Origin: Candidatus Saccharimonadota bacterium
GTDB taxonomy: Bacteria; Bacillota_I; Bacilli_A; Mycoplasmatales; Hepatoplasmataceae
Length of the DNA: 32,000 nt
NCBI GenBank assembly: GCA_027925325.1
Contig: AP027133.1
Span: 30,001-62,000 of the forward strand
Reading direction: 5' to 3'
The position numbers were made by a program, and so were the translations under genes. This document shows, in pieces, positions 16,079-22,142 of the stretch (its first letter is position 1; each line of letters starts with the position of its first letter). The notes under the pieces are model-generated. The model had not been told where the DNA came from. It searched no databases and worked only from the letters and a program-made list of their open reading frames with translations.

Positions 16079-16441
16079 TTATTTATATGATTCTTCTTGT
16101 TCTTTTTTAAGTTGCTTTTTAAAGATAACAGGAATTGAAATTATTGATAAAAATGATCCGGCTGAATTTCCTAAAGCTCCGATAATTACAATATAAATTG
16201 CTTTTGAAACATCTAAAGTGGTGCTATTTTCAGGAGTAGCACTATATATTGCAATTCAAGCTATCAAAGGAATTGTAATTGAAGAAATAAAAGTCGCATA
16301 TACACCATAAATCGCTGCGCTAACATATCTGTTTCGCTTTATCTTAAATATTTTAATATTAAAAGCTAGAGAAATGGTGTACTGTAAAATTAAGATAATT
16401 AAAAAAAATATAATTAAAAATCATCATTTATCTACTATCAT
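16079..16441 (-). CDS. Small integral membrane protein (about 120 aa, 3-4 TM), paralog of the upstream gene
   Basis: Minus-strand ATG at 16441, stop TAA (plus-strand tta 16079-16081). Absent from the ORF track because of in-frame TGA codons. Translation: MIVDKWWFLIIFFLIILILQYTISLAFNIKIFKIKRNRYVSAAIYGVYATFISSITIPLIAWIAIYS...AIYIVIIGALGNSAGSFLSIISIPVIFKKQLKKEQEESYK. Confidence 0.6.
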
Positions 16442-16796
16442 TTACTTCTTCCTTTTTTTGCTTCTTTTTTCTTCCTCGTTTTTCTTCATGACCTAGTTTT
16501 TTAGAAACATAGGGAACTAAAATTGCCGCAAAAAAATTACCAATTGCTGTTGCAAAAGCAGCAATTAGAATGATTCATCAAGGTGCCGTTTCTCCATCTG
16601 TTAATGCTACAACAACAATGGGCGTTGCGGCCATTGTTATTACAAATAAAAAAGAAGCAACTGCCCCCATTAAGGCAGCGACCAAAAATTGATCTTTTGA
16701 GATCATATAAATTCGATAATTAAAAAAGAATCCAACAATTAATTCTACAAAGGGATATACAAATAATATTATTAATGCTACTTCTCAATTTTCCAT
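16428..16796 (-). CDS. Small integral membrane protein (122 aa, 3-4 TM) with a basic C-terminal tail
   Basis: Minus-strand ATG at 16796, stop TAA (plus-strand tta 16428-16430). Translation: MENWEVALIILFVYPFVELIVGFFFNYRIYMISKDQFLVAALMGAVASFLFVITMAATPIVVVALTDGETAPWWIILIAAFATAIGNFFAAILVPYVSKKLGHEEKRGRKKKQKKEEVNDSR. It overlaps the start of the downstream paralog by 14 nt. Confidence 0.65.
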
Positions 16797-17641: not shown

Positions 17642-18441
17642 ATGAGTAATTTTGAAAAAAAAGATCTGAAAAATGATATTAAAATAATTCATTATATCTG
17701 AATTCCTGATAAAAAAATATTCCAAAAAAACAATTGGAAATTATTAATAATACACTAAAAATTAATAATGATTTCTCAGTAAAAATATGAGATTTTAATG
17801 AAATAAAAAAATTAAATATTAAAAACAAGTATTTCAATAAATCTATTGCAAAAAAACAATGAGCTTTTGCTTCTGATTATTTGAGATTAAAAATTTTATA
17901 TGAATATGGAGGAATTTATTTAGACACTGATCTACATTCTTTAAAAAAAATAAGTAATTTTTTAGATAAACAAAATAATGTTGATCTTATTTTGGGTTTT
18001 GAATATAAATATCTTGTTTCAACTGGATTTATTTGAGCTAGAAAATCAAAAAACAAAATTATCAAAAAAATTTTAAATTATTATGATAATTTTGATAAAT
18101 ATAACGATCCAAAAAAAATTAAATTCATTGTTAATAATTATATTTGAACGTATGTTTTAGTTAAAGATCATAATTTACTTTTTAAAGATCAAAATCAAAT
18201 ATTAAAAGACAAAATTTTAATTGTTAATCATAATTATTTCTCATCTATTAATAAAGCAAAAGAAGAAAGTTTTTTTCTACACAAGCATTTATTATCTTGA
18301 AAGGAAAATCATAATATAAGAAAATTGATGATTTTTATTTTATCATATATTCAAGAACATAAAATTTTAAATCCATTTCTTAAAATTCAAATTGAACTTA
18401 AATTAAGGAAAATTAAAAAAATATATAAAAATTTGAAATAA
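17642..18441 (+). pseudogene. DXD-motif glycosyltransferase (Gly_transf_sug / GT32-like), interrupted by a 1-nt frameshift in poly(A) tracts (phase-OFF allele, pseudogene or sequencing error)
   Basis: The frame from ATG 17642 gives MSNFEKKDLKNDIKIIHYIWIPDKK, then stops at TAA 17756-17758. The remainder (KQLEIINNTLKINNDFSVKIWDF...WAFASDYLRLKILYEYGGIYLDTDL...) is open in the neighbouring frame from 17713 to TAA 18439-18441. The span is 800 nt, one short of a multiple of 3. Confidence 0.65.
17711..17730 (+). repeat. Two A7 homopolymer tracts (17711-17717 and 17724-17730) at the frameshift site
   Basis: The sequence reads gat-AAAAAAA-tattcc-AAAAAAA-caattgg. One added A in either run restores a single ORF. 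Confidence 0.8.
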
Positions 18442-18473: not shown

Positions 18474-19484
18474 ATGAAAACATTTGGCGTAGTTATACCT
18501 ATTTATAATACAAAAATAGAGTGAATTAAAAAATCTATTGATTCAGCAATAGAATCTTATTTTAATTTAAATAAGGATTTTGAAATTATCATTATTGATA
18601 ATGGTTCAAATGATAAAAAAATTTGAGAATTTTTAAATGAAAATTATAAAAATTATGATTTTTTAAAATTAAAAAAATTTGCAAAAAATGAAGGAAAACA
18701 ACAAGCAACAAAATATGGTTTTTATAAAATAGACGCAAAGTATTTTCAAGTTTTAGATGCAGACGATTGATTAGATTCAAACAAAATTAAAAACGTTGTT
18801 AATACTTTAAAAAAAATAGATGGCGATATATTTTTTTTAAACTATTACTATTACAATAATAAAAAGCAAACGATTCGAAAAGAACGCAAAATTTATAAAA
18901 AATCTTCTTTAGAATATATTGAATTGAAAGAAATTCCGAGAATGTTTTGACATTTTAATGCAAATACAATTTTTAATAAGGAATTTATGCTAAAAAATAA
19001 TTTTAAATTCCCTGATACAAAAATTTATTATGAAGATATTTATATTAATATGTGAAATTTATCAAAAGTGAAAAAACCATTTTTTGTTAATGAAGCATTT
19101 TATTATTATCGAGTAAATATTGGTGGAACAAATTTATCATCAACAAAAAAAATGTTTGAATATATCGATTATTTTGAAAAGATGTATCGAGAGATCATTA
19201 AATTAGATTTTTCAAATCCAATTTCAAAAAAAAATATGTTGAATCTTGCAAGTTTACAATATTTAACTCTTACTTATTTTTGAACAGCAAAGGAAAAATT
19301 TGAAGTTGCAAATAATAAAATAAATAATCTAAAAAAGGAAATTAAAAATAATAAAAATTTATATTATGCAAAAAGTTTAAAAAGACCAAGAATTACAATT
19401 CTTGGTGATTTAATTATTTGAAAAGGATATTCATTTTTCTTTGTAAAACCTTTTACAAAGATTGTTTTTAAATTTAGAAATTAA
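18474..19484 (+). CDS. Family 2 glycosyltransferase
   Basis: ATG 18474; in-frame TGA codons join it to track ORF 19068..19283 and on to TAA 19482-19484 (336 aa). GT2 pattern: FGVVIPIYNT...EIIIIDNGSND...KNEGKQQATKYGF...YFQVLDADDWL. Confidence 0.8.
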
Positions 19485-19486
19485 CT

Positions 19487-20158
19487 ATGATTAAAAAAGA
19501 TATTAAAAAATATAATGTATGTTTAACTTATGGAACTTTTGATATGTTTCATTTTGGTCATTTATCAATTCTTTTGAGATGTAAAGAGAAATGTAATAAA
19601 TTAATTGTTGGTGTTGCAACGGATGATTATAATAAAAATAAACAAAAAGAATCTATTCAATCACAACAACAGCGTTTTAATTTTATTAAAAATTTACATT
19701 TTGTTGATAAGGTTATTTATGAACATAACTTTAATATTCAATGAGCTAATGATTATAAAAAATATAGAGCAGAAGCAATTTTTATCGGAGATGATCATAA
19801 AGGAGAATTAGATTATTTAATTGAAGATGGAATAAATCTTATTTATCTTGATCGAACTAAAGGAATATCAACAAGTGATATTAAGAAAAAAATAAAGCAA
19901 AAAAATATTTTCTTTTTAATTCAAAACAAATTAGATCAAACAGAAGAATTATTTCAAAATATTAAAAAAATTAATCTTAATAAAGATAATTTTCTAGTTT
20001 TAGCGATTAATAAAAAAATTGAAACTAGTTTTCAGTTATATCAATTTTGAAATAGTAATAAAAAAATAGATTTTATTTTTCTTTTTAATAATACGCAAGA
20101 AGTAAATCAAATGAAAAAAAGAATTAATTTATTGAAAATTAATAATTTAATCAATTAA
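19487..20158 (+). CDS. tagD: TagD-like cytidylyltransferase (HxGH family) with an extra C-terminal region of about 85 aa and unknown function
   Basis: Motifs LTYGTFDMFHFGHLSIL (HxGH) and DRTKGISTSDI (RTxGISTS). The ORF extends through TGA 19742-19744 to TAA 20156-20158 (223 aa, compared with about 130-140 aa for a core TagD). Confidence 0.7.
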
Positions 20159-21008
20159 ATTTAAAAAATATCATATATATAATTCATAATTTAATTTTTA
20201 AATTTTTTACTTTAATTTCTTTTTTTATTTTTTTATAGTAATTTTTTCTTGATGAAAAAAATCTCTTATTAAGCATATATTTAACAAAAATTGGTTTATA
20301 ACTTTTATCTAAATTTTTATAATTTTTATTATAAAAATTAATTATGATAAGCAATGAATTTCAGTATTTTTCTTTTTGCTTACTATTTAATTTTTCTTTA
20401 TTAATTTTATCTAAAATGTTATTGTAAATTAAATAAGGAATATTAATATTTTTTCAACTTGCGTCTGTTCCAAGAGCCATTCCAATATATTGGAATTCAA
20501 AATGTTTGACTCCTTTTAATAAATTTTCTTTATTTTCAATTGCTTTTTGAGTTTTAAAAATTGTATTATAAGTTAATAATCCTAGTCTTTTTTTATTATA
20601 TTTTTGTTCTCCACTCTTATATTTTTTATAAAATGAATGTTGAACTAAATCTACATTTGTATTTGTTAATTCATAAATTAAATTTTTTAATCAATTAAAA
20701 ATTATTTTATCTTTTGCTTTAATTAATTTAAAGTATTTACTATCAATTTTTTGAAGGTATCTATACAAAAATTCAGCTTTTTTTAAATTTTCTTGATCTT
20801 TTAAAATTATTATTTTTTTATCAAAAGCTTTTATTATCTTATTTTTAAAATCAATATTTTTATTGCTATTTACATATATCATAACTTGAACTAAATTATC
20901 AAGAGAATTTTCTTCTAGATATTTTTGTAAAAAATTAATTCTAGTTATTTCTTCTAGATTAATTTTTTCATCAATTGTATAGATAAAACTTAAAACTTTA
21001 TTTTTCAC
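20139..21008 (-). CDS. GT2-like protein with a degenerate catalytic motif (hypothetical)
   Basis: GTG start at 21008 (track ORF 20691..21008). With TGA = Trp the same frame is open at both ends down to the stop at plus-strand tta 20139-20141 (289 codons). The N-terminal pattern LSFIYTID...VQVMIYVNSNK...ENLKKAEFLYRYLQKIDSKYFKLIKAKDKI mimics GT2 topology but has KAKD where DxDD is expected. Caveat: my manual frame tracking through the A/T runs at about 20640-20700 was ambiguous, so an internal frameshift cannot be excluded. Confidence 0.45.
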
Positions 21009-21081
21009 AATATTTATTATTGTATTCTAAATTTAAATAATTATAAAAATAAATATTTAAAATTTACCTTATTTTTAATAG

Positions 21082-21107
21082 TTTTTATAAATTTTAATTT
21101 ATAAAAA
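21082..21107. repeat. Perfect 12-bp inverted repeat with a 2-nt spacer in the divergent intergenic region
   Basis: TTTTTATAAATT-tt-AATTTATAAAAA, ending about 19 nt upstream of the Abi-like gene start. Confidence 0.5.
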
Positions 21108-21125
21108 ATTTGCTATTATTAAATT

Positions 21126-22124
21126 GTGAAAGAAATGGGATTTTTATTACAAAGAGTTAAAAGTGATTTTTTAAAAAATTATTTTACTGAGGATGAATAT
21201 TGTGAATATTTAAACAATATTGAAAATAATAAGTATATTGATAGAAAAATTTATCTGAAGATAAAAGAATTAAATATTTATTTAAAAACGAAAGATTTTG
21301 AATTATTTGATTTTATCACTGAAAATATAATTTCTTTTGATCAATGTAATAATAATATTTTAAAAATTTATGATGATTTTTTTAGTTATCATCAAAAAAT
21401 TCTTACAATTTTTTTTGACAATTTTATTCTTTTTGAAAAATTAATTAAAAATAAAATAATCAATTCAATTAATTATTTTAATATAAATTCTTTATATGAA
21501 TTAATAAGAAAAATTATTGATAATTCTCAAAATAAAATTTTTGTAAAAAGATTTAAATTTATTTTTTCTATTTTTTATAGTTATAATCGAGAAAAAGCAG
21601 AGAAAATAGTAAATTCAAAAAATAAAAATAAAATTAATGAAGATGAATTATTTATTAGTTTGTACAAAAATAGTGATAAAGCTACAAAAAGGTACTTTGA
21701 TTACAAATTAATAAATGAATTTTCTTTTTCGGATATAATTGACTTTTTTACGATTTTAAAAGATAAAAATTATAAAAATTATTTAAATATAAGAATTTTT
21801 TTAATTAATTTGTTGGGTGAAAAAAAATATAATAATTTCTATCAACAAGATGATCAAAATAATATTATTAATTGATTTTTGAGCAATTATAAAGCTATAA
21901 AAATTTTACGTAATAAAGTTATGCATAATAAAGTTTTATTTACAAATATGAAGGAATTAAATAAAGGAATTGATAGTCTAATTAAATTATCTAATCAAGA
22001 AAAAAATAATATTGGTGATTTAACTTATAAAAAATTTTTAAAAGAGACTTTTACTGTTTTGAAAAAAATTAATCAAAATAAAGCTTCTAATTTTTTTAAA
22101 AATGAATTAATTAAATTTCACTAA
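21126..22124 (+). CDS. Abi_2 (AbiD/AbiF-like) abortive-infection family protein
   Basis: Track ORFs 21126..21875 and 21879..22124 are in one frame joined by TGA = Trp (332 aa; ATG 21135 is an alternative start). The C-terminal signature IINWFLSNYKAIKILRNKVMHNKVLF matches the family's conserved sWl..l..lRN..aHh..l block. Upstream, the FSFSDIIDFFTILKD segment is also family-like. Confidence 0.6.
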
Positions 22125-22142
22125 TAGATATGATTTGATTTT

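What the first reader, a model, noticed from the sequence alone, without database searches (positions are those of the whole stretch)
20139..22124. Divergent pair of a degenerate GT2-like protein and an Abi_2 abortive-infection-like protein inserted between the two LicD/TagD modules
The only other minus-strand gene in the locus and an AbiD/F-like gene (LRNKVMHNKVLF signature) diverge from a 117-bp, extremely AT-rich intergenic region. Together they split what otherwise looks like a tandem licD-tagD duplication. The minus-strand protein keeps GT2-like strand/helix spacing but has KAKD in place of the DxDD metal/nucleotide-binding motif, so it may be a non-catalytic sugar-nucleotide or glycan binder. 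A phage-defence gene sitting inside a locus that builds a likely phage receptor, paired with a pseudo-glycosyltransferase, could be an undescribed two-gene defence or sensing module. Equally, it could be an unrelated insertion.
Basis: inference. Interest (0 to 1): 0.7.

Follow-up and report, generated by a model that had tools for sequence, protein, structure and literature searches.

The report
Hidden Abi-like RNase beside orphan glycosyltransferase-like gene
In an isopod-gut mollicute, two back-to-back unannotated genes inside a surface-glycolipid locus are most likely a very divergent abortive-infection-type (Abi_2/HEPN) RNase and a glycosyltransferase-like protein lacking the usual catalytic acids; they appear to be neighbours, not a new two-gene defence system.

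Summary
The window is from Candidatus Hepatoplasma scabrum (genetic code 4, 23% GC). The divergent gene pair exists as described: HPPSJP_0470 on the minus strand, HPPSJP_0480 on the plus strand, and a spacer of about 8% GC.

The plus-strand protein matches no Pfam, PADLOC, NCBIfam or PHROG model. An exhaustive profile search found four distant homologues. One passes Pfam Abi_2's gathering score and another just misses it. The R-x4-H motif needed for AbiF toxicity is invariant. I read it as a cryptic, deeply divergent Abi_2/HEPN protein.

The minus-strand protein gives only sub-threshold GT2 matches and has no DxD motif in any lineage. It is as strongly constrained as the locus's enzymes (dN/dS 0.12-0.17).

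The "two-gene defence module" idea is not supported:
- The pair co-occurs only in five fully collinear Hepatoplasma lineages.
- Distant Abi-like homologues have unrelated neighbours; one sits in a GmrSD defence island.
- The GT-like protein has no relatives outside the genus.
- No abiF RNA motif or conserved RNA lies upstream.

The Abi-like gene probably heads an abi-licD2-tagD2 transcript. Both structure models were poor, and no empty site could be examined outside the genus. Interest is modest.

The parts
20139..21008 (-). GT-like orphan protein (HPPSJP_0470), 289 aa, GTG start, with a hydrophobic C-terminal tail (WIIYMIFFKFNWLNY)
   Evidence: Code-4 ORF. It is 100% identical to P0006. Only three other homologues were found, all from Hepatoplasma, at 73-84% identity. 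Pfam GT2 is sub-threshold in all four (18.3, 13.3, 15.2 and 17.8 bits against a cut-off of 23.3). dN/dS is 0.12-0.17. The strongest hydrophobic segment starts at residue 270.
20709..20720 (-). KAKD (residues 97-100), at the position where GT2 enzymes carry DxD
   Evidence: Invariant in all orthologues. hhalign places it opposite DADD of the neighbouring GT2. No DxD occurs anywhere in any of the five orthologues.
21009..21134 (.). Divergent intergenic region, 7.9% GC, with two putative back-to-back promoters
   Evidence: In the five-lineage alignment only the gene-proximal ends are invariant. ATTATA at 21040-21045 reads TATAAT on the minus strand. TGCTATTAT at 21111-21119 is an extended -10 on the plus strand and is followed by GTGAAAGAAATG. 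The centre has a 22-bp deletion in this genome. RNAalifold gives -7.4 kcal/mol with 0 compensatory pairs. There is no Rfam hit. The promoter assignment is inference.
21126..22124 (+). Abi_2/HEPN-like protein (HPPSJP_0480), 332 aa from GTG 21126 or 329 aa from ATG 21135
   Evidence: It is 100% identical to P0001. No direct family hit. Homologous to P0010-13, of which P0012 and P0011 match Pfam Abi_2. dN/dS is 0.14-0.35.
21909..21926 (+). R262-N263-K-V-M-H267, an Rx4H HEPN catalytic motif
   Evidence: Invariant in all nine clade members. It aligns with R202/N203/H207 of phiC2 AbiF. R202 and H207 are required for AbiFCd toxicity (PMC12373285).
21435..21461 (+). E104-x-x-I-K-N-K-I-I, the second invariant block
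   Evidence: Invariant in all nine clade members. E104 aligns with the invariant E87 of the phage Abi_2 reference alignment.
22143..23450 (+). licD2 (22143-23000) and tagD2 (23007-23450), probably co-transcribed with the Abi-like gene
   Evidence: Pfam LicD at 6.8e-14 and CTP_transf_like at 6.7e-16. The Abi-licD2 spacer is 5-18 bp in all five lineages. No terminator-like site lies in 19900-22400. Co-transcription is inference.
19487..20158 (+). tagD1 (cytidylyltransferase with a C-terminal extension), convergent with the GT-like gene and overlapping it
   Evidence: Pfam CTP_transf_like at 1.3e-15. The 3' overlap with the GT-like gene is 4-20 bp in all lineages.

Best explanation
These are two separately functioning genes that have been vertically inherited side by side since before the known Hepatoplasma lineages diverged.

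(1) The plus-strand gene encodes a deeply divergent, mollicute-restricted branch of the Abi_2 (AbiD/AbiF) HEPN family. By analogy with AbiFCd, it most likely acts as a dimeric RNase. Its active site would be built from R262/N263/H267, and it would be toxic when unleashed by infection or stress. It appears to be transcribed from its own extended -10 promoter as the first gene of an abi-licD2-tagD2 unit.

(2) The minus-strand gene encodes a genus-restricted protein that is probably derived from the GT-A fold. It has lysines where the DxD acids should be, and a hydrophobic C-terminal tail. It most likely serves the surrounding glycolipid/glycan pathway (GalU, two glycosyltransferases, two cytidylyltransferases, two LicD phosphotransferases). 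It could be either a metal-independent enzyme or a non-catalytic partner.

Shown: homology chain, motif invariance, purifying selection, synteny, and the lack of an associated RNA.
Inferred: RNase activity, toxicity or defence role, promoters and operon structure, GT-A fold, and membrane association.
For: Identity and code.

Abi_2 chain:
- The A1 profile finds only P0010-13 among 1.84 billion proteins (E = 4e-26 to 1e-14).
- Hepatoplasma proteins against that clade by hhalign: E = 1.3e-32.
- P0012 scores 27.3 bits on Pfam Abi_2 (cut-off 25.6) over profile positions 8-184 of 184. P0011 scores 24.6 bits.
- Distant clade against 11 phage Abi_2 proteins, including phiC2 AbiF: E = 4.7e-4 over 154 collinear columns. 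Controls give 0.055 and 0.29.
- My phage Abi_2 HMM ranks P0010, P0012, the L008 tandem neighbour and P0013 above the window decoy ORFs in a 90-sequence set.
- The Rx4H motif and the E-x2-IKNKII block are invariant. Both align to residues shown to be essential in AbiFCd.

Family behaviour of the distant homologues:
- Each sits in a different genomic context.
- P0010 lies next to a second Abi_2-like gene (Pfam E = 1.6e-4) and to GmrSD, helicase fragments and PLDc_2. This fits the tandem-copy and defence-island enrichment reported for abiF (PMC12373285).

Independence of the two genes:
- No neighbour of any distant homologue resembles the GT-like protein.
- The GT-like protein has only Hepatoplasma homologues. 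None were found in viral or metagenome contigs.

Both genes are functional: no internal stops, dN/dS of 0.12-0.17 and 0.14-0.35, within the range of their neighbours.

GT-A lead:
- The same sub-threshold GT2 register appears in all four orthologues.
- The low-confidence model has a beta-alpha x4 pattern in residues 6-116, with KAKD at the end of strand 4.
- The non-significant Foldseek list is dominated by GT-A enzymes.

Operon inference.

Locus chemistry by analogy with M. fermentans mf1, a LicD-family enzyme (PMC11982090).
Against: - The window protein itself matches no Abi_2 or defence model. Its direct hhalign to Abi_2 (E = 0.043) is no better than the controls.
- The distant-clade-to-Abi_2 link has only 32% hhalign probability.
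- Both AlphaFold models are poor (pLDDT 54 and 38). All three fold searches were non-significant.
- Being fixed at one core-genome site across a whole genus, and apparently co-transcribed with biosynthetic genes, is atypical for Abi genes, which are usually strain-variable.
- No neutralising partner was found: no abiF motif and no conserved RNA. This leaves open how a toxin would be held in check, and so keeps the GT-like protein formally available as a partner.
- The GT-A assignment never reaches significance. The proposed paralogy to the adjacent GT2 failed shuffle and decoy controls.
Confidence: 0.55

Rival explanations
1. This is a true two-gene module. The GT-like protein would be the antitoxin, sensor or regulator of the Abi-like HEPN toxin. 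For example, it could sense nucleotide-sugar or surface-glycan status, or phage interference with the receptor glycan, and release the RNase.
For: - The divergent arrangement, with a shared 126-158 bp promoter region, is conserved in all five lineages.
- An Abi_2 toxin normally needs a neutraliser (PMC12373285), and no RNA candidate was found.
- The GT-like protein lacks catalytic acids yet is strongly constrained.
- Both genes share the lowest GC content of the locus.
Against: - The Hepatoplasma genomes are collinear throughout (PMC10928387), so co-occurrence carries no information.
- All four distant Abi-like homologues lack a GT-like neighbour.
- The GT-like protein has no homologue outside the genus.
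- PADLOC does not detect either protein.
- The two genes evolve at different rates: 73-84% against 63-70% amino-acid identity.
Confidence: 0.12
2. The Abi-like protein is a domesticated HEPN RNase or RNA-binding protein with a housekeeping or regulatory role. For example, it could process or control the abi-licD2-tagD2 transcript. It would not be a defence gene.
For: - It is fixed at a core-genome site between fusA and tsaE in every lineage of a reduced genome of about 0.6 Mb.
- Spacers of 5-18 bp to licD2, and no predicted terminator.
- Purifying selection.
- HEPN domains also serve in RNA processing (PMC3710099).
- The Hepatoplasmataceae genome paper lists only restriction-modification systems and CRISPR-Cas9 as defences.
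Against: - The nearest relatives sit in varied contexts, including a defence island with a tandem Abi_2 copy and GmrSD.
- The catalytic Rx4H motif is intact and invariant.
- Its dN/dS is among the higher values in the locus, 0.24-0.35 against more distant lineages.
- No functional link between HEPN and LicD/TagD chemistry came up in the papers read.
Confidence: 0.2
3. The Abi_2 resemblance is spurious. The plus-strand gene would be a lineage-specific helical protein of unrelated function, whose RN-x3-H motif and weak profile hits come from extreme AT-driven composition.
For: - No direct HMM hit.
- Direct hhalign equals the controls.
- 58% of residues are K, N, I, F or Y.
- Bias scores in the HMM searches are high.
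- The structure model is poor and finds no HEPN match.
Against: - P0012 matches nearly the whole Pfam Abi_2 model above the curated cut-off. Two other proteins, P0011 and the L008 neighbour, come close.
- Three motif blocks align in order, including the experimentally essential R and H.
- Decoys of the same composition from the same window score lower.
- One homologue has a defence-island context.
Confidence: 0.13

Closest known systems
AbiF/AbiD (Pfam Abi_2, PF07751; HEPN superfamily), e.g. AbiFCd of the C. difficile phi027 prophage, identical to phiC2 ORF37
   Same: - Single protein of about 290-340 aa.
- Rx4H with N after the R (R262/N263/H267 here, R202/N203/H207 in AbiFCd), at a similar relative position.
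- A conserved upstream Glu block.
- Collinear profile alignment through intermediate sequences.
- Distant clade members occur in tandem copies and next to a restriction system, as reported for abiF.
   Different: - No direct HMM match.
- The canonical N-terminal 'Q..L..RGL…YY' block is not recognisable.
- No abiF RNA motif (RF03085) or other conserved RNA lies upstream.
- The gene is not on a prophage, plasmid or variable island. It is fixed in the core genome of a whole genus and probably co-transcribed with licD2-tagD2.
- Toxicity and defence are untested.
GT2 / GT-A glycosyltransferases (PF00535), including the neighbouring GT2 at 18474-19484
   Same: - Sub-threshold GT2 match in the same register in all orthologues.
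- Predicted beta-alpha repeats in the N-terminal half.
- The local stretch 'KIDSKYFKLIKAKDKIIFNWLKN' resembles 'KIDAKYFQVLDADDWLDSNKIKN' of the neighbour.
- A hydrophobic C-terminal tail, as in the neighbour.
- Location inside a glycan locus.
   Different: - No DxD anywhere. Both DxD acids are Lys.
- The DNGS-type Asp and the ED-motif Asp appear to be replaced, but that part of the alignment is low-confidence.
- All scores fall below the family threshold.
- Similarity to the neighbouring GT2 fails shuffle and decoy controls.
Type III toxin-antitoxin / AbiF-RCd22 RNA-neutralised systems
   Same: A putative HEPN toxin with an upstream non-coding region.
   Different: - The upstream region has no tandem repeats beyond AT-rich background, no Rfam hit, no covariation, and a lineage-specific 22-bp deletion.
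- The putative promoter lies about 7-16 nt from the start codon, which leaves no room for a leader RNA.
Mycoplasma fermentans mf1/mf3 glycoglycerophospholipid pathway (LicD-type phosphotransferase plus glycosyltransferase)
   Same: The surrounding locus combines GalU, glycosyltransferases, cytidylyltransferases and LicD enzymes. That is the toolkit for phospho-X-decorated glycolipids in a wall-less mollicute.
   Different: This concerns the context only. Neither gene of the pair has a counterpart in that pathway, and the product of the Hepatoplasma locus is unknown.

Membership tests
Abi_2 (PF07751) / AbiD-AbiF HEPN | The protein itself matches the family HMM at or above the curated threshold | tested here: not met
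   No Pfam hit at E <= 1, and none in PADLOC, NCBIfam or PHROGs. My phage Abi_2 HMM does not detect the five Hepatoplasma proteins. Direct hhalign gives E = 0.043, the same as controls.
Abi_2 (PF07751) / AbiD-AbiF HEPN | Homology to bona fide members can be shown through intermediate sequences | tested here: met
   Hepatoplasma to P0010-13: E = 4e-26 to 1e-14 and hhalign 1.3e-32. P0012 scores 27.3 bits on Pfam Abi_2 (cut-off 25.6), and P0011 scores 24.6. Distant clade against phage Abi_2: E = 4.7e-4, with controls at 0.055 and 0.29. Support is moderate rather than overwhelming.
Abi_2 (PF07751) / AbiD-AbiF HEPN | Rx4-6H catalytic motif, typically with a polar residue after the R | tested here: met
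   R262-N-K-V-M-H267 is invariant in nine sequences. It aligns to R202/N203/H207 of AbiF. Those residues are essential for AbiFCd toxicity.
Abi_2 (PF07751) / AbiD-AbiF HEPN | All-alpha HEPN fold | tested here: inconclusive
Abi_2 (PF07751) / AbiD-AbiF HEPN | Associated abiF RNA motif (RF03085) upstream. This is a feature of the AbiF subset, not of the whole family. | tested here: not met
   No Rfam hit at E <= 10 in window 19400-23600 or in L007, L008, L010 and L011. No conserved structure in the five-lineage alignment.
Abi_2 (PF07751) / AbiD-AbiF HEPN | Toxicity on expression, or a phage-resistance phenotype | not testable with these tools
   Needs expression of a recoded gene, with and without R262A/H267A.
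Abi_2 (PF07751) / AbiD-AbiF HEPN | Patchy, strain-variable distribution in a mobilome or defence-island context | tested here: not met
   In Hepatoplasma the gene is fixed at the same core site in all five lineages. The distant homologue P0010 does sit in such a context.
GT2 / GT-A glycosyltransferase (PF00535) | Match to the family HMM at or above the curated threshold | tested here: not met
   Scores of 18.3, 13.3, 15.2 and 17.8 bits against a cut-off of 23.3. The PDB profile search found nothing at E <= 10.
GT2 / GT-A glycosyltransferase (PF00535) | DxD metal/nucleotide-sugar binding motif | tested here: not met
   KAKD occupies the aligned position. No DxD occurs anywhere in the five orthologues, whereas the true GT2 always has DAD or DSD at residue 95 or 101.
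GT2 / GT-A glycosyltransferase (PF00535) | GT-A Rossmann-like fold | tested here: inconclusive
   The model has pLDDT 38. Its secondary structure is beta-alpha x4 over residues 6-116. The Foldseek PDB list is rich in GT-A enzymes (SseK3, ArnC, GlcAT-P, TarS, Kre2p), but every hit has E > 0.1 and TM <= 0.25.
   Co-occurrence is limited to five collinear Hepatoplasma lineages. The four distant Abi-like genes have unrelated neighbours. The GT-like protein has no relatives elsewhere.
   PADLOC gave no hit for either protein, for orthologues or for distant homologues.

The most novel reading that the evidence does not exclude
A HEPN/Abi_2 toxin has been captured as the promoter-proximal gene of a surface-glycolipid operon and fixed across a genus of genome-reduced symbionts. 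The divergently transcribed, acid-less GT-A-like protein would act as its protein antitoxin or sensor. This would couple surface glycan or nucleotide-sugar status, or phage attack on the receptor glycan, to RNA cleavage. It would be an Abi_2 system with a pseudo-glycosyltransferase partner in place of the abiF RNA.
Probability: 0.1. Interest if true: 0.7.

Novelty: new member of a known kind. Interest (0 to 1): 0.3.

Why it matters
Both genes are annotated as hypothetical proteins. The published survey of Hepatoplasmataceae defences lists only restriction-modification systems and CRISPR-Cas9 (PMC10928387).

Recognising a cryptic Abi_2/HEPN gene adds a candidate toxin or defence function to these minimal symbiont genomes. 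It also defines a mollicute-specific Abi_2 branch that current HMM libraries (Pfam, PADLOC) largely miss.

Its fixation in the core genome, at the head of a glycolipid operon and with no detectable RNA antitoxin, is unusual for an Abi gene. It would be worth one toxicity experiment.

The GT-like protein is a constrained, DxD-less member of a glycan locus. It is a possible pseudoenzyme or metal-independent transferase, which would interest people working on mollicute surface glycolipids.

Neither point changes current understanding unless the two proteins turn out to work together.

Tried and rejected
1. Direct family assignment of both proteins with Pfam, PADLOC, NCBIfam and PHROGs gave nothing significant.

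2. Sequence searches of solved structures with both profiles gave only chance hits.

4. The GT-like protein as a decayed inverted paralogue of the adjacent GT2. The full-length hhalign (E = 0.015) with DNGS to YVNS, DADD to KAKD and ED to EF looked attractive. However, composition-preserving shuffles gave z = 2.7, 4.2 and 1.3, an unrelated decoy scored higher, and reciprocal HMMs found nothing. I kept it only as a lead.

5. An RNA antitoxin or abiF motif in the spacer was rejected.

6. The empty-site test outside the genus used a LicD profile on GTDB genomes.

7. Searches for either family in viral contigs, JGI metagenomes and plasmids found nothing.

8. A word-indexed search with the 9-sequence profile added no new relatives.

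9. The 251-aa neighbour of P0012 looked DUF3800-like by eye, but Pfam and PADLOC gave nothing.
Full report
**Source and genetic code.** The window is 23.4% GC. Under code 11, genes break at TGA. Under code 4 they form a dense, almost entirely plus-strand gene array. The two proteins of the finding are 100% identical to HPPSJP_0480 and HPPSJP_0470 of Candidatus Hepatoplasma scabrum, a mollicute from the isopod hepatopancreas. Both are annotated as hypothetical.

**Observation check.** The sequence facts hold.
- The minus-strand ORF is 20139-21008 (289 aa).
- The plus-strand ORF is 21126-22124 (332 aa from a GTG). All orthologues are called from the ATG at 21135.
- The spacer is 117 or 126 bp, at 7.9% GC.
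- LRNKVMHNKVLF (residues 261-272) and KAKD (residues 97-100) are present and invariant among orthologues.

Three corrections apply. Two more minus-strand genes lie at 16079-16796. The flanks are not a simple tandem duplication. The GT-like gene overlaps the end of tagD1 by 20 bp. The full gene order is:

galU, licD1, two small membrane genes (minus strand), hydrolase, DXD-type glycosyltransferase, GT2, tagD1, GT-like (minus strand), Abi-like, licD2, tagD2.

LicD1/LicD2 are 46% identical and TagD1/TagD2 are 41% identical.

**Distribution and selection.** Both proteins have close homologues only in Hepatoplasma. Five lineages were examined: this window, L001 (Av), L006 (Ps), L091 and L092. All show the identical gene order from rpsL/fusA to uvrD, including the divergent pair. 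There is therefore no empty site within the genus. Because these genomes are collinear throughout (PMC10928387), co-occurrence says nothing about a functional link.

Neither gene has internal stops, and both are under purifying selection.

| Gene | dN/dS | Amino-acid identity | Comparable to |
|---|---|---|---|
| GT-like | 0.12-0.17 | 73-84% | LicD1, GalU, GT2 |
| Abi-like | 0.14-0.35 | 63-70% | TagD1, RDD, the DXD glycosyltransferase |

Both genes have the lowest GC content of the locus (15.4% and 14.8%) and the most AT-driven amino-acid composition.

**The plus-strand protein.** An exhaustive HMM search of 1.84 billion proteins with the 5-sequence profile found only four further proteins, P0010-P0013 (E = 4e-26 to 1e-14, 28-32% identity). 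All come from contigs of 22-23% GC using code 4.

Evidence that links these proteins to Abi_2:
- P0012 matches Pfam Abi_2 (PF07751) at 27.3 bits, above the gathering score of 25.6, across profile positions 8-184 of 184.
- P0011 reaches 24.6 bits.
- P0010 carries a 'faint' precomputed Abi_2 hit.

The 9-sequence alignment keeps E104, IKNKII (107-112), R142, E198-F199, D203, W250-F251 and R262-N263-K-x-M-H267-N268 invariant.

I built an independent Abi_2 reference from 11 phage proteins. It includes phiC2 ORF37, which PMC12373285 reports as 99.9% identical to the experimentally studied AbiFCd. The hhalign results were:

| Comparison | Result |
|---|---|
| Hepatoplasma proteins vs distant clade | E = 1.3e-32 |
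| Distant clade vs phage Abi_2 | E = 4.7e-4, 154 collinear columns |
| Hepatoplasma proteins vs phage Abi_2 directly | E = 0.043 |
| Control: reversed reference | E = 0.055 |
| Control: GT-like profile | E = 0.29 |

The alignments place E104 opposite the invariant E87, and R262/N263/H267 opposite R202/N203/H207. R202 and H207 are the residues whose mutation abolishes AbiFCd toxicity (PMC12373285). Abi_2/AbiD/AbiF are HEPN domains with an Rx4-6H motif (PMC3710099).

In a 90-sequence set that included all window ORFs as same-composition decoys, the phage Abi_2 HMM ranked P0010, P0012, the L008 tandem neighbour and P0013 on top. It did not detect the Hepatoplasma proteins.

My conclusion is that this is probably a deeply divergent Abi_2/HEPN relative. 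The link can be shown only through intermediates, and I put it at about 85%.

**Context of the distant homologues.** Each sits somewhere different.
- P0010 is followed by a second Abi_2-like gene (Pfam E = 1.6e-4, carrying RNHVAHN), then by GmrSD, DEAD/ResIII fragments and PLDc_2. This is a defence-island-like context. It matches the reported enrichment of tandem abiF copies and defence genes at positions -1 and +1.
- P0012 lies divergent from an unrelated 251-aa protein directly upstream of secY.
- None of the neighbours resembles the GT-like protein by BLASTP or HMM.
- Neither family occurs in IMG/VR viral contigs, JGI metagenomes or plasmids.

**Is there an RNA partner?** AbiFCd is neutralised by RCd22, an upstream RNA carrying two abiF motifs (RF03085). 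Here, cmscan at E <= 10 finds nothing in 19400-23600 except tRNA-His at 23496, and nothing near the distant homologues.

The five-lineage spacer alignment is conserved only at its two ends:
- An invariant TAATTATA, which reads TATAAT on the minus strand, lies about 32 nt from the GT-like start.
- An invariant TGCTATTAT (an extended -10), followed by GTGAAAGAAATG, sits in front of the Abi-like gene.

The centre carries a 22-bp deletion in this genome. RNAalifold gives -7.4 kcal/mol, an unfavourable covariation term and no compensatory pairs. Tandem repeats are at AT-rich background level.

The consensus promoter scan is uninformative at this composition: it found 22 sites against 29 expected, and no terminators. 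The Abi-licD2 spacer is 5-18 bp in all lineages. I infer that the Abi-like gene heads an abi-licD2-tagD2 transcript with a very short leader.

**The minus-strand protein.** All four orthologues give the same weak GT2 match (E = 0.002-0.08, 13-18 bits against a cut-off of 23.3) in the same register. hhalign to the neighbouring GT2 aligns KIDSKYFKLIKAKDKIIFNWLKN with KIDAKYFQVLDADDWLDSNKIKN. No DxD exists anywhere in any orthologue, whereas the real GT2 always has one at the aligned site.

A permissive full-length alignment also suggested DNGS to YVNS, ED to EF, and similar hydrophobic C-terminal tails. That would make the GT-like protein a decayed paralogue of the neighbouring GT2. The idea failed its controls:
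- Shuffle z-scores were 2.7, 4.2 and 1.3.
- The unrelated Abi-like protein scored higher.
- Reciprocal HMM searches were negative.

The AlphaFold model (pLDDT 38) shows a beta-alpha x4 pattern with KAKD at the end of strand 4. Its Foldseek list is rich in GT-A enzymes but non-significant.

The GT-A fold is therefore plausible, at roughly 60%, and unproven. The loss of the canonical acids is real. Constraint as strong as on the locus's enzymes argues for a retained function, either metal-independent catalysis or a non-catalytic role.

**Locus chemistry.** GalU, two glycosyltransferases, two cytidylyltransferases and two LicD phosphotransferases form the toolkit used by M. fermentans (mf1/mf3) to make phosphocholine- or phosphoethanolamine-decorated glucolipids (PMC11982090). 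The Hepatoplasma product is unknown.

**Verdict.** The proposed two-gene defence or sensing module lacks support. The best reading is two independent neighbours: a cryptic, fixed Abi_2/HEPN gene and an orphan GT-like accessory gene of the glycolipid locus.

The main weaknesses are poor structure models, membership shown only through intermediates, and no genomes outside the genus in which to test for an empty site or for either gene occurring alone.

Noticed in passing
window 17643-18441 (A7 run at 17711-17717): The DXD-type glycosyltransferase (Gly_transf_sug) is frameshifted in this genome. Its conserved N-terminus (MSNFEKK…IIHYIWIPDKK, from ATG 17643) is in a different frame from the rest of the gene (17734-18441). 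The cause is a 1-bp deletion next to an A7 run relative to the orthologues (DKKDIPK). It could be a MAG homopolymer error, a pseudogene or phase variation.
   Followed up: partly
window 23496-23572: A tRNA-His(gtg) gene lies between tagD2 and tsaE. The long ORF starting at 23527 runs through it, so TsaE probably starts near 23599.
   Followed up: partly
window 16079-16441 (-) and 16428-16796 (-): Two small, overlapping, multi-span hydrophobic proteins (120 and 122 aa) sit inside the glycan locus. They are conserved in all five lineages (dN/dS 0.05-0.16) and have no Pfam hit. They may form a small two-subunit flippase or GtrA-like component.
   Followed up: no
window 19487-20158: TagD1 carries a C-terminal extension of about 80 aa (residues ~142-223) that TagD2 lacks. 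TagD1 also has one of the highest dN/dS values of the locus, 0.21-0.41.
   Followed up: no
L008:546-10216: A mollicute-like contig (23% GC, code 4) inside assembly GCA_040777085.1 carries two tandem Abi_2-like genes, a GmrSD type IV restriction gene, DEAD/ResIII helicase fragments and a PLDc_2 gene. This looks like a compact defence island.
   Followed up: partly
L009:9148-10942 and L010:3730-5524: The Abi-like homologue P0012 is divergently paired with an unrelated 251-aa protein (MYYIGIDETGT…), which has no Pfam or PADLOC hit. That protein sits directly upstream of secY, at the end of the ribosomal-protein operon.
   Followed up: partly
window 21001-21008 and 21126-21133: An invariant 8-bp inverted repeat, TTTTTCAC … GTGAAAGA, brackets the divergent spacer in all five lineages. 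It consists of the two translation-start regions. Both genes begin with, or are preceded by, GTGAAA(A/G)A.
   Followed up: no
window 20139-22124: The two genes have the lowest GC content of the 22 genes compared (15.4% and 14.8%, against 19-34% for all but the DXD glycosyltransferase at 16.8%). They also have the highest K+N+I+F+Y content (57-58%). This fits lineage-specific proteins drifting towards mutational equilibrium.
   Followed up: partly
window 1683-2009: A tmRNA gene (tag peptide GNDDSAVDFALMQEQSIQNTNFALA) lies next to smpB-like ORF 1232-1672. tRNA-Ser is at 6768 and tRNA-Gly at 8424.
   Followed up: no
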